64,000 nt of DNA. It comes from Promethearchaeati archaeon SRVP18_Atabeyarchaeia-1. Lineage in GTDB: Archaea > Asgardarchaeota > Atabeyarchaeia > Atabeyarchaeales > Atabeyarchaeaceae. The notes below the pieces were generated by a model. It searched no databases, was not told the DNA's origin, and saw only the letters and a program-made list of their open reading frames with translations. The DNA lies in NCBI GenBank assembly GCA_037308085.1, contig CP147779.1, positions 2,336,001 to 2,400,000 of the forward strand, written 5' to 3'. Each line of letters begins with the position of its first letter. Positions within the stretch are counted from its first letter, which is position 1. The translations under genes were made by a program, and so were the position numbers. Positions 9,545 through 29,517 of this stretch are shown in pieces.

Positions 9545-9769
9545 GATACCTATCCCTTAGGAGAATGAATCCTTTAAGTCCTTTGTGCTAAATGGCCCTT
9601 TTTGCGGCGGTTTTTGGGATCACTCTTCGGGTACCCATATTCATTTAGGTATGACCTGATGAAGAAACCGCAAAAGAACTTTCCGCGGTGGGGTCGAGCA
9701 TTGGAGTCCCCTGTCATCAAATGCTGGCAGAAGGCAAAAAAAAGAGGAAATGGAGGTTTTTAAAGTCCA

Positions 9770-9792
9770 CATACCTATGTCTTTAATACTTT
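9770..9792. repeat. 23-bp direct repeat, copy 1 (CATACCTATGyCTTTAATACTTT)
   Basis: One mismatch to 10099-10121; contains pseudo-palindrome CATA-CC-TATG next to an AT-rich TATA-like block. Confidence 0.75.
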
Positions 9793-10098
9793 ATCAGGCG
9801 AATCAAGGAAATCCGCGGGATGCGGTCTGAAATCATCGAGGATTTGGGCTGACGGCGCAAAGCAGTAACAGCTTTAGAGGACTTCCTGCAAGGGCGCGCA
9901 GAATTGAGTCTGCTAGACAATACTCCCTTTTTGATACCAACCTTGACGGCAGGCACAAATCCCGGATCCAAACACCGCGATTCTGTGGCGCAAAGCTACG
10001 TATTCTTCAATAGGGATCTAACTTACTAGGGGCGAGGAACGAACCAACCGGCCGTCTTGCGAAAACCAGACAAAAGAGGGGGGAGTTCTTGAAGAACG

Positions 10099-10121
10099 CA
10101 TACCTATGCCTTTAATACTTT
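10099..10121. repeat. 23-bp direct repeat, copy 2
   Basis: One mismatch to 9770-9792. Confidence 0.75.
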
Positions 10122-10167
10122 GTTGAGATCGGTGCTGTCACATCTGCGGTTGGCATGCTTTCATATG

Positions 10168-10340
10168 GAAGGTTCTTATGCGCACGCGTGACCTACCAAC
10201 CCCTCAAAGGGTGTTGGCTTCCTGGTTCATGGACCGAGCTTGCCTCGACGTGTGGCGGCCGTTGAGGCACCTCAGAGGCGCCGGGGTAGAGGCTTCGATC
10301 TCCGCAGGCGTAGATTCGGCGCGCACCATACCTATTGCCG
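10168..10340 (-). ncRNA. Putative TnpB omega-RNA (reRNA) scaffold plus flanking guide GCGUGCGCAUAAGAACCUUC; 5' end approximate
   Basis: Right-end sequence GCCTGCGGAG...CCTCTAC...GCAAG...ATGAACCAGGAAGCC...GGTAGGTCAC has the layout of IS605/IS1341 right-end RNAs; expression is inferred, not shown. Confidence 0.5.
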
Positions 10341-10418
10341 AGACCGATGCATGTTCCTCTATTTGAACCCGCGATTCACCCCACCCCTCAAAGGGTGTGG
10401 GCTTCCTGGCCCGCGTTC
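10188..10418 (-). mobile_element. Non-autonomous IS200/IS605-family element (PATE) with both ends and the 3' tail of tnpB
   Basis: Two copies of the subterminal hairpin CAGGAAGCC(A/C)ACACCCTTTGAGGGGT(T/G)GG; inserted 3' of TTAC (10422-10419); ends in TCAC (10191-10188); no target duplication; interior encodes IGMVRAESTPAEIEAST...QARSMNQEA, like TnpB C-terminal tails. Confidence 0.85.
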
Positions 10419-10480
10419 GTAACAGAACCTTGAGATCAGCACCTGCAGAGTCTGAGAAGCTATTTGGAGTCGTCGCGAAT

Positions 10481-11062
10481 TTGGCAAAGAAGAATTTTGG
10501 AAGCAAACCGCTTCTTCTCCCATTTCCAGTCACTATTGTGGGGGCAGAAGTTGATGGAAAACCTAACTTCATGGCGATCGGTTACATCGGGATAATCGAT
10601 GACACGCCATCGATGGTCGCACTGGGATCGCTGAAGACCCATTACACGAATAGAGGTATTATTGAGAACAAGACGTTCTCTGTAAACATACCTTCGGAAG
10701 AGATGATTCAGATCACTGACTACGTGGGGGTGGTTAGCGGAGAGAAGACAGACAAGTCGAAGCTATTTGATGTTTTCTACGGGAAGCTGAAGAATGCGCC
10801 GATGATACAGCAGTGTCCACTCAACCTTGAGTGCAAGGTTCTCGATATTCTGGAGAAAGGGGGTACGTACTACAACATCATTGGCGAGATTGTCGAATCT
10901 TACGTCGACGAGGAGTGCATGGTTGGCAAGTACCCGGACCTGGAGAAGGTGAAACCTATGGTCTTTTCGGTGGTTGGTGGCAAGTACTACTCAGTCGGGA
11001 AGTATCTTGGCGCGATGGGGAAAGCGAGCAAGGATTTCAAGTATAATGGCAGAGAACAGTAA
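10481..11062 (+). CDS. Flavin reductase / flavoredoxin family protein
   Basis: PFPVTIVGA, GKPNFMA, HYTNRGI, FSVNIPS, APMIQQCPLNLECKV; start moved to TTG 10481 because the longer ORF begins inside the mobile element. Confidence 0.88.
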   Translation: MAKKNFGSKPLLLPFPVTIVGAEVDGKPNFMAIGYIGIIDDTPSMVALGSLKTHYTNRGIIENKTFSVNIPSEEMIQITDYVGVVSGEKTDKSKLFDVFYGKLKNAPMIQQCPLNLECKVLDILEKGGTYYNIIGEIVESYVDEECMVGKYPDLEKVKPMVFSVVGGKYYSVGKYLGAMGKASKDFKYNGREQ

Positions 11063-29210: not shown

Positions 29211-29280
29211 GGGAATGCTATCAGGAAAAGATCACTCTACTCTAATATTAGCTAGAGTTCAGATATATATCTGCCGAGAA

Positions 29281-29348
29281 GGTTCCGTTAGGCGCACACA
29301 TAAGAACCTTCCATATGAAAACGTGCCAACCGCAAAGGTAACAGTTCC
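29281..29348 (+). mobile_element. 68-bp IS6-like MITE, copy B (uninterrupted)
   Basis: Perfect 8-bp duplication GCCGAGAA at 29273-29280 and 29349-29356; TIRs GGTTCCGTTAG / GGAACTGTTAC; 56/68 identical, without gaps, to reconstructed copy A. Confidence 0.85.
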
Positions 29349-29517
29349 GCCGAGAACAAAGCCACGCGTAGGGTCCCAGGGGCACGCTTTCTCTCAGCCC
29401 TCCCACCCCGTTGCACAAGTTGAGGCAGACAAGAGAGTTGCCACAGAACCGGAACTGATAAGAATGTGAAAAACCTGGATCATCCGGTTACCGAGTGTTC
29501 CAGGGGATATGTCTACT

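What the first reader, a model, noticed from the sequence alone, without database searches (positions are those of the whole stretch)
10168..10422. IS200/IS605 mini-element nested in the MITE terminal repeat: a TnpB guide RNA aimed at another transposon family
Seen: a 231-bp element with both hairpin ends inserted exactly after TTAC, which is part of the MITE TIR. It has lost tnpA and nearly all of tnpB but keeps the tnpB tail and right end. The sequence after its TCAC end is MITE interior (GCGTGCGCATAAGAACCTTCC). Known: the TnpB omega-RNA is the right end plus flanking DNA as guide, and cleavage needs a TAM equal to the insertion motif. Inference: with TnpB supplied in trans, this stand-alone guide would target every MITE copy (and parent IS6) that carries TTAC plus this sequence. 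That would be RNA-guided transposon-vs-transposon conflict, or a homing route through a multicopy repeat. The insertion also splits the TIR, probably immobilising copy A.
Basis: partly seen in the sequence, partly recalled or inferred. Interest (0 to 1): 0.85.

Follow-up and report, generated by a model that had tools for sequence, protein, structure and literature searches.

The report
Guide-RNA mini-transposon nested in a MITE
A 231-base IS200/IS605 mini-element that keeps only its two ends, a promoter and the TnpB guide-RNA scaffold sits inside a small IS6-type MITE, but its guide matches nothing else in the genome, so this is an ordinary nested insertion and not a weapon against another transposon family.

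Summary
Window 10188-10418 (minus strand) is a 231-nt IS200/IS605 deletion derivative, a PATE. The genome holds 11 copies. Each sits after TTAC (two after TTGC), ends in TCAC (one in TCGC), and has unrelated flanks. The element keeps the left-end hairpin, an archaeal TATA box, and about 150 nt homologous to the 3' tail of one tnpB gene. That stretch folds into a covariation-supported structure.

It lies after the TTAC of the right terminal repeat of a 68-nt MITE with perfect 8-bp target duplications. The MITE's repeat is shared with IS6-transposase elements and with many tnpB-only elements.

The interpretation does not hold. The predicted guide (GCGTGCGCATAAGAACCTTC) has no second TTAC-flanked target in the 2.81-Mb genome. 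Only one other MITE copy exists. It reads TTAG and has three TAM-proximal mismatches, a divergence equal to the rest of that MITE. The parent elements lack this sequence.

As in any IS200/IS605 insertion, the guide matches only its own donor joint. Guide-RNA-encoding PATEs that need TnpB in trans are already described (Meers et al. 2023). One intact cognate tnpB exists, but it has no left end. No RNA data were available.

Other first readers of this scan had already noted the IS6-type tnpB elements elsewhere in this genome.

The parts
10419..10422 (-). TTAC target site and presumed TAM. It also forms positions 8-11 of the MITE right terminal repeat GGTTCTGTTAC.
   Evidence: 9 of 11 copies are preceded by TTAC and 2 by TTGC.
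10188..10418 (-). 231-nt IS200/IS605 mini-element (PATE): left end, then tnpB 3' tail with guide-RNA scaffold, then right end.
   Evidence: 11 copies with identical boundaries and unrelated flanks. 97% identical to the copy at genome 1679700-1679933.
10380..10402 (-). Left-end subterminal hairpin GCCCACACCCTTTGAGGGGTGGG.
   Evidence: The same hairpin type stands in the left end of the full-length relative L032.
10360..10367 (-). Archaeal TATA-like box TTCAAATA (TTTAAATA in most copies), about 25 nt upstream of the scaffold start. Presumed promoter of the guide RNA.
   Evidence: Conserved position in all mini copies and in the left end of L032. Promoter function is inferred, not shown.
10188..10336 (-). 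Stretch homologous to the tnpB 3' end: presumed omega-RNA scaffold, ending in the TCAC cleavage motif (10188-10191).
   Evidence: 82.5% identity to genome 2527105-2527253. blastx matches TnpB residues 376-400 and 403-422, with a frameshift between them. Eight-helix structure: 95.1% of cells paired, 13 compensated pairs, 0 of 500 shuffles reach this.
10196..10218 (-). Right-end subterminal hairpin GCCAACACCCTTTGAGGGGTTGG.
   Evidence: (D5).
10168..10187 (-). Predicted guide segment GCGTGCGCATAAGAACCTTC, which is MITE interior.
   Evidence: Position follows from IS200/IS605 and TnpB biology (inference). This is the only perfect match in the genome.
10131..10187 (+). MITE copy A, left 57 nt. It includes the left terminal repeat GGTGCTGTCAC and a stretch 91% identical to the left end of tnpB-bearing elements such as the one at genome 704572.
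10419..10429 (+). MITE copy A, right terminal repeat (GTAACAGAACC).
10123..10130 (.). 8-bp target duplication TTGAGATC, left copy. The right copy lies at 10430-10437.
   Evidence: The paralog locus at genome 1590475-1590685 has a single TTGAGTCA and no MITE.
29281..29348 (-). MITE copy B, unoccupied, with perfect 8-bp duplication TTCTCGGC at 29273-29280 and 29349-29356. It has TTAG where copy A has TTAC.

Best explanation
The feature is a non-autonomous IS200/IS605 element, a palindrome-associated transposable element (PATE). It arose by internal deletion of a tnpB-only (IS1341-type) element.

What it keeps:
- the left end, with the TnpA-recognised hairpin and the former tnpB promoter;
- about 150 nt of the tnpB 3' end and right end, which encode the omega-RNA scaffold.

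How it got here (inferred): a Y1 TnpA supplied in trans inserted it as single-stranded DNA 3' of a TTAC. That TTAC happened to be part of the right terminal repeat of a 68-nt IS6-type MITE. The MITE itself sits between the promoter and the start codon of a flavin-reductase-like gene.

What it would do (inferred): if transcribed, the RNA runs on the minus strand from about 10336 through TCAC into about 16-20 nt of MITE interior. Loaded on the single cognate TnpB (genome 2527109-2528380), it would cut only this element's own empty donor joint (TTAC plus GCGTGCGC...) after excision. That would favour restoration from a sister chromosome.

The MITE setting is incidental, because the guide has no other target in the genome.

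Shown: the anatomy, copy family, boundaries, tnpB-tail homology, conserved structure and absence of other targets. Inferred: transcription, loading on TnpB and cleavage.
For: - Eleven copies share TTAC/TCAC boundaries and have no target duplication.
- The right 150 nt are homologous to the tail of one tnpB. That gene has the RuvC D/E/D residues and Pfam OrfB_IS605 plus Cas12f1-like_TNB domains.
- A full-length relative in a same-genus Asgard MAG (L032, 71% aa identity) has a matching left end after TTAC and a matching right end ending in TCAC.
- The structure of the right-end region holds with compensatory changes across 18 sequences: 95.1% of cells paired against 27-40% in the slid controls, 13 compensated pairs, 0 of 500 shuffles.
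- A TATA box conserved in all copies lies about 25 nt upstream of the scaffold start.
- Three Y1 tnpA genes are in the genome. The element carrying one of them has a right-end terminus nearly identical to the mini-element's.
- The guide has no second site with TTAC and 3 or fewer mismatches, and the same holds for all 11 copies.
- Only 1 of 11 copies lies in a terminal repeat.
- PATEs that encode omega-RNAs and need TnpB in trans are described in PMC10055086.
Against: - No RNA run holds this organism, so transcription is untested.
- The only cognate tnpB has lost its left end and promoter region; it abuts a truncated FGGY-kinase gene. It shares only 82.5% identity with the mini-element's scaffold, so trans-loading is uncertain.
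- The left end of the tnpA-bearing element is only about 70% like the mini-element's left end (by eye), so the mobilising TnpA is not firmly identified.
- About 0.02 insertions of 11 are expected in one of the 25 repeat-borne TTAC sites among 11,876 TTAC sites. The location is therefore mildly unexpected, although this was noticed post hoc.
Confidence: 0.8

Rival explanations
1. One reading: the stand-alone guide, with TnpB in trans, targets the MITE family and its parent elements. This would be RNA-guided conflict between transposons, or homing of the mini-element through a multicopy repeat.
For: - The guide-forming flank is MITE interior and the TAM is part of the terminal repeat.
- A catalytically intact cognate tnpB exists.
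- The one other MITE copy has both a changed TAM (TTAG) and three TAM-proximal mismatches, which an escape model would predict.
- Landing in one of only 25 repeat-borne TTAC sites is unlikely by chance, roughly 2%.
Against: - There are only two MITE copies in the genome.
- No site has TTAC plus 3 or fewer mismatches.
- The parent tnpB-bearing elements lack the TAM and the TAM-proximal 8 nt.
- Copy B's divergence in TAM plus target (4/24) equals that elsewhere in the MITE (8/44), so drift explains it.
- No other mini-element lies in a terminal repeat.
- The exact TAM plus 16 nt gave one hit in JGI metagenome contigs, in an unrelated context; about one chance hit is expected by my rough estimate.
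Confidence: 0.05
2. Inert fossil: the mini-element is a decaying remnant that is neither transcribed nor mobilised, and the conserved structure only reflects recent common descent and TnpA-hairpin constraints.
For: - No RNA evidence is available.
- The only cognate tnpB has no left end.
- Most copies are 80-86% identical, hence old.
- The tnpB-tail reading frame is broken in the mini-element.
Against: - The window copy is 97% identical to the copy at genome 1679700-1679933, while both differ by 14-20% from the rest. This points to a recent transposition.
- The scaffold's 5' half is nearly invariant across copies whose central loop varies, and compensatory changes keep the helices down to relatives with 53-58% aa identity in TnpB.
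- The TATA box is kept in all copies.
Confidence: 0.12
3. Regulatory side effect: the MITE plus PATE (307 nt) pushes the flavin-reductase-like gene's TATA box (10108-10115) from about 60 nt to about 370 nt upstream of its start codon (10481). It also places a convergent promoter inside the leader. The relevant consequence would then be altered expression of the downstream operon (flavin reductase, Fe-ADH, glycyl radical enzyme).
For: - The paralog locus at 1590475-1590685 shows the uninterrupted promoter-to-start arrangement.
- The PATE's predicted transcript runs antisense towards that promoter.
- DNA contigs from two studies carry the left-end junction of the insertion.
Against: This is purely positional and no expression data exist. 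It does not compete with the transposon explanation of what the element is.
Confidence: 0.03

Closest known systems
PATEs (palindrome-associated transposable elements) of IS200/IS605, first named in Haloquadratum walsbyi (PMC3119063) and noted in Geobacillus stearothermophilus as omega-RNA-encoding elements that need TnpB in trans (Meers et al. 2023, PMC10055086)
   Same: No protein gene; both hairpin ends kept; multicopy; inserted after a fixed tetranucleotide; retains the right-end region that encodes the TnpB guide RNA.
   Different: - The host is an Asgard archaeon.
- Copies outnumber the cognate tnpB 11 to 1, and that tnpB has lost its own left end.
- This copy is nested in a MITE terminal repeat.
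IS608 / ISDra2-type IS200/IS605 elements with TnpB and omega-RNA (Karvelis 2021; Altae-Tran 2021; both as cited in PMC10691335)
   Same: TTAC target as in IS608; subterminal hairpins; no terminal inverted repeats and no target duplication; the tnpB reading frame overlaps the guide-RNA scaffold and runs to the right end; the TAM equals the target motif.
   Different: In the full-length form, tnpB runs to within 4 nt of the element end. The window copy has neither tnpA nor tnpB.
IS6-family elements and their MITEs (8-bp target duplication, ends starting GG)
   Same: - The host MITE has GG(T/A)nCTGTyAC ends and perfect 8-bp duplications.
- The same 22-bp repeat bounds two elements that carry DDE_Tnp_IS240 transposases (genome 549276-555829 and 614149-618567).
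   Different: - The MITE's left 50 nt are most like the left end of tnpB-only members of this repeat family, not a DDE-encoding IS.
- The MITE is only 68 nt long and has two copies.
TnpB associated with DDE transposons that have inverted terminal repeats (Altae-Tran et al. 2023, PMC10691335)
   Same: Solo tnpB genes lie between symmetrical ends that also occur around a DDE transposase. The tnpB 3' end lies at the transposon end.
   Different: In the passages I read, that paper names IS630 for its DDE-6 branch and does not name IS6. Here the ends and the 8-bp duplications are IS6-type. This concerns the host MITE's family, not the mini-element itself.

Membership tests
IS200/IS605 (non-autonomous PATE) | No terminal inverted repeats and no target-site duplication | tested here: met
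   Flanks of the 11 copies are unrelated on both sides apart from the TTAC.
IS200/IS605 (non-autonomous PATE) | Subterminal imperfect hairpins at both ends, in the same orientation | tested here: met
   GCCCAC..GTGGG in the left end and GCCAAC..GTTGG in the right end, in all copies.
IS200/IS605 (non-autonomous PATE) | Insertion 3' of a fixed tetra- or pentanucleotide, and a fixed cleavage motif at the right end | tested here: met
   TTAC in 9 of 11 copies and TTGC in 2 of 11; TCAC in 10 of 11 and TCGC in 1 of 11.
IS200/IS605 (non-autonomous PATE) | A Y1 HUH TnpA available to mobilise it | tested here: inconclusive
   Three Y1_Tnp genes are in the genome. The element at 1573364-1575060 has a near-identical right-end terminus, but its left end is only loosely similar.
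TnpB omega-RNA | Derived from the tnpB 3' end plus right end, with the guide taken from the flank | tested here: met
   DNA and blastx homology to the tail of the 422-aa tnpB. The same arrangement stands in the full-length relatives L032-L037. The guide position is inferred.
TnpB omega-RNA | Conserved secondary structure supported by covariation | tested here: met
   34 pairs in 8 helices; 95.1% of cells paired; 13 compensated pairs; 0 of 500 shuffles; slid controls 27-40%. No Rfam family matches.
TnpB omega-RNA | Transcript present and bound by TnpB; TAM-dependent cleavage | not testable with these tools
   No RNA run holds this sequence. Biochemistry is needed.
IS6-type MITE (host element) | Terminal inverted repeats starting GG and an 8-bp target duplication | tested here: met
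   Copy A has TTGAGATC twice and copy B has TTCTCGGC twice; the ends are GGTGCTGTCAC / GGTTCTGTTAC.
IS6-type MITE (host element) | Ends shared with an element that encodes an IS6-family DDE transposase | tested here: met
   The 22-bp repeat GGTTCTGTTACCTCTGCGGTTG bounds 614149-618567 (DDE_Tnp_IS240, 63.7 bits; duplication 7/8). A variant with 4-6 mismatches bounds 549276-555829 (SWIM plus DDE_Tnp_IS240; duplication 8/8).
   There are zero such sites. The best other site has TTAG and 3 TAM-proximal mismatches.

The most novel reading that the evidence does not exclude
The 11 promoter-plus-scaffold mini-elements could act as a dispersed set of trans-acting guides for the single, left-end-less TnpB, a multi-guide arrangement that foreshadows CRISPR. 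In that case this copy's guide, drawn from a MITE, would cut unoccupied copies of that MITE in other strains of the population. That would give RNA-guided interference or homing between two transposon families.
Probability: 0.05. Interest if true: 0.7.

Novelty: new member of a known kind. Interest (0 to 1): 0.3.

Why it matters
This is a clean, well-bounded example of an omega-RNA-only IS200/IS605 derivative in an Asgard archaeon, with a defined TAM (TTAC), a covariation-supported scaffold and a candidate cognate TnpB. It could help workers cataloguing TnpB and guide pairs, or studying how guide modules separate from their nuclease. It does not show transposon-versus-transposon targeting, because the guide has no target other than its own insertion site. 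The wider context may be more interesting: an IS6-type repeat family with 8-bp duplications that carries tnpB genes, noted repeatedly elsewhere in this genome. That is a separate finding.

Tried and rejected
- RNA evidence: the look-up of sequencing runs listed no RNA holder, so expression could not be examined.
- Laying DNA contigs of four metagenome runs gave no contig spanning the whole stretch and no joint across the element. It therefore gave no empty-site evidence. It showed only that the left-end junction occurs in contigs from two studies, and that many contigs break at 10188, which is a repeat boundary.
- Rfam: no family matched except a chance miRNA hit at E = 0.42.
- The single-sequence fold of the right end plus guide was no better than shuffles, z = -0.52. 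Only the alignment-based analysis was informative.
- Orthologous locus in 30 relatives: none found at the DNA level, so the order of MITE and PATE insertion could not be checked across species.
- A search of JGI metagenome contigs for the exact TAM plus 16 nt gave one hit in an unrelated context. I take it as chance; my rough estimate expects about one.
- My early reading that the 'MITE' was merely the left end of another IS200/IS605 element (after) was dropped once perfect 8-bp duplications and shared 22-bp inverted repeats were found.
- ORFs overlapping the element (for example 10397-11062 plus strand and 10204-10572 minus strand) were rejected as artefacts. By paralog alignment the flavin-reductase-like gene starts at TTG 10481.

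Full report
**1. What is in the sequence**

On the minus strand the region reads TTAC (10422-10419), then a 231-nt element (10418-10188), then GCGTGCGCATAAGAACCTTCC. The element starts GAACGCGGGCCAGGAAGCCCAC and ends GGTTGGTAGGTCAC. It has two similar hairpins. The left-end hairpin GCCCACACCCTTTGAGGGGTGGG lies at 10380-10402. The right-end hairpin GCCAACACCCTTTGAGGGGTTGG lies at 10196-10218 (family D5).

A search of the window's own 2.81-Mb single-contig genome found 11 full-length copies at 80-97% identity, plus partial matches to either end. Aligned with 40 nt of flank, all copies share the same boundaries:
- Preceded by TTAC in 9 copies and TTGC in 2.
- Ending in TCAC in 10 copies and TCGC in 1.
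- Flanks unrelated on both sides, with no target duplication.

This is the signature of IS200/IS605 single-strand transposition.

**2. What the element is made of**

The right 150 nt (10188-10336) are 82.5% identical to the 3' end of a single tnpB gene at genome 2527109-2528380 (minus strand, 422 aa). By blastx they match its residues 376-400 and 403-422, with a frameshift between the two stretches. Features of that protein:
- Pfam OrfB_IS605 and Cas12f1-like_TNB domains.
- Sequence matches to solved TnpB structures, including ISDra2 TnpB (8h1j and 8exa, E = 2e-9).
- GIDFG, QDENL and RDLNS motifs, which align to the RuvC Asp, Glu and Asp.
- A reading frame that runs to 4 nt from the TCAC end, so the scaffold lies wholly inside the coding tail.

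This tnpB has no left end. Its 5' side abuts a truncated FGGY-kinase gene.

Intact full-length relatives exist in other Asgard archaeal MAGs. The closest is L032, in a same-genus MAG, at 71% aa identity. It has a left end after TTAC with the same hairpin, the TGAATGGCG motif and a TATA box, and a right end ending GGGTAGCTCAC. The mini-element is therefore an internal-deletion derivative of a tnpB-only (IS1341-type) element.

The left end carries an archaeal TATA-like box: TTCAAATA at 10360-10367, TTTAAATA in most copies. It lies about 25 nt upstream of the point where tnpB-tail homology begins at 10336. The deletion thus places the former tnpB promoter directly in front of the scaffold. Promoter function is inferred from position and conservation only.

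**3. Is the scaffold a conserved RNA?**

A single-sequence fold was uninformative, z = -0.52, and Rfam has no matching family. I then aligned 18 sequences: 11 mini copies, the genomic tnpB tail and six relatives from other Asgard MAGs. This gave a consensus of 34 pairs in 8 helices:

| Measure | Observed | Control |
|---|---|---|
| Cells forming a standard pair | 95.1% | 27-40% when partners are slid by 1-3 columns |
| Pairs with compensatory double changes | 13 | 3-8 (slid) |
| Shuffles reaching the observed value, any measure | 0 of 500 | n/a |

The window copy keeps all helices. The last two helices are also the right-end DNA hairpin used by TnpA, so they do not speak for RNA specifically.

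**4. The host element**

Removing 10188-10418 restores a 68-nt unit (10131-10187 plus 10419-10429). It is flanked by a perfect 8-bp duplication, TTGAGATC, at 10123-10130 and 10430-10437. A second, unoccupied copy lies at 29281-29348 (minus strand) with a perfect duplication TTCTCGGC. A paralogous flavin-reductase locus at genome 1590475-1590685 has the same promoter and start region without the unit.

Its ends belong to a 22-bp repeat, GGTTCTGTTACCTCTGCGGTTG, that occurs about 50 times in the genome. That repeat bounds:
- Many tnpB-only elements of about 1.3 kb with 7/8 or 8/8 eight-bp duplications.
- A 4.4-kb element at 614149-618567 and, in a variant with 4-6 mismatches, a 6.5-kb element at 549276-555829. 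Both carry IS6-family DDE_Tnp_IS240 transposases, and the larger one also carries a type IIG restriction-modification gene.

The MITE's left 46-50 nt are 91% identical to the left end of one tnpB-bearing subfamily, for example at genome 704572. The 'other transposon family' is therefore IS6-type in its ends but is itself largely a tnpB carrier. Other first readers of this scan have noted this family at several places in the genome. TnpB in DDE elements with inverted repeats is reported in PMC10691335, where the passages I read name IS630 and not IS6.

**5. Testing the interpretation**

The predicted guide is GCGTGCGCATAAGAACCTTC. Results of the genome scan:
- Allowing up to 6 mismatches over 20 nt, the only site with 3 or fewer mismatches is MITE copy B.
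- Copy B is preceded by TTAG instead of TTAC and mismatches guide positions 4, 5 and 7.
- The next best site, the parent-type element at 704628, has 4 mismatches and no TAM.
- The TAM-proximal 8 nt of the target are specific to the MITE's internal junction and are absent from the longer relatives.
- Copies A and B differ at 12 of 68 positions: 4 of 24 in TAM plus target and 8 of 44 elsewhere. The rates are equal, so copy B's changes need no escape explanation.
- None of the 11 mini-element guides has a second site with 0 or 1 mismatch.

A search of JGI metagenome contigs for the exact TAM plus 16 nt gave one hit in an unrelated context, which I take as chance.

Only this one of the 11 copies lies in a terminal repeat. 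Repeat-borne TTAC sites number 25 of 11,876 TTAC sites, so the placement is mildly unexpected (about 2%). It is a single event and was noticed post hoc.

The insertion lies between repeat positions 11 and 12. Neither MITE copy's right end matches the family repeat beyond position 11. The conserved part of the repeat is therefore not split, and 'immobilised' cannot be judged.

**6. Mechanism**

The best-supported reading is the standard one. A TnpA supplied in trans inserted the PATE at a TTAC. The genome has three Y1 genes, and one sits in an element whose right-end terminus is nearly identical to the PATE's. If the PATE is expressed and loaded on the cognate TnpB, its guide recognises only the scarless donor joint left by its own excision. 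[quoted passage not shown] The window copy is 97% identical to the copy at genome 1679700-1679933, while both differ by 14-20% from the other copies. That argues for recent mobility.

Transcription, TnpB loading and cleavage are all inferred. No RNA data exist for this organism.

**7. Context and side effects**

The MITE plus PATE adds 307 nt between the TATA box at 10108-10115 and the TTG start at 10481 of a flavin-reductase-like gene. The predicted guide-RNA transcript runs antisense towards that promoter. DNA contigs from two different studies (freshwater sediment and wetland) carry the same left-end junction. No empty site was seen, but short-read contigs break at the repeat.

**8. Verdict**

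The element is a new member of a known kind: an omega-RNA-encoding PATE, here in an Asgard archaeon and nested in an IS6-type MITE. The headline interpretation, a guide aimed at another transposon family, is not supported in this genome.

Noticed in passing
genome (outside the window), e.g. G000:C1:54026-55316, 234279-235571, 326164-327455, 644510-645801, 1171598-1172889, 1251822-1253116, 1697571-1698831, 1808115-1809377, 2173232-2174523: A family of elements of about 1.3 kb whose only gene is tnpB. They are bounded by 22-bp inverted repeats (GGTTCTGTTACCTCTGCGGTTG and variants) and by 8-bp target duplications. The tnpB frame ends inside the right repeat. The same repeat bounds two larger elements with IS6-family DDE transposases (549276-555829, which also carries a type IIG restriction-modification gene, and 614149-618567). 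Other first readers of this scan have noted the family.
   Followed up: partly
same elements, 8-bp duplications: In the 7/8 duplications, the single mismatch falls at position 4 in four of six cases and at position 5 in one (AATGTTAT/AATATTAT, TCACCGCG/TCAGCGCG, TCTACTAA/TCTGCTAA, CTTCCTCT/CTTGCTCT, TGGTACGG/TGGTTCGG). This clustering at the centre of the duplication is unexplained.
   Followed up: no
window 9756-9792, 10085-10121, 7119-7157; genome 1590475-1590519: A repeated promoter-like motif (CATACCTATGYCTTTAATACTTT) stands upstream of several unrelated genes. Several IS6-type elements, including MITE copy A, sit 5-15 nt downstream of such TATA-like boxes. This may be a target preference, or a way of capturing a promoter.
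   Followed up: no
genome 2527109-2528800 (L030): The only tnpB cognate to the 11 mini-elements has no left end and directly abuts a 5'-truncated FGGY-family sugar-kinase gene, yet it keeps an intact 422-aa frame with the RuvC residues. It is an immobilised nuclease that is outnumbered 11 to 1 by its guide modules.
   Followed up: partly
genome 763237-763617 and 868840-869096: Further internally deleted derivatives (381 bp and 257 bp) of the IS6-type tnpB elements. The second has a perfect duplication TCATGTGA. This shows that the family repeatedly spawns MITEs.
   Followed up: no
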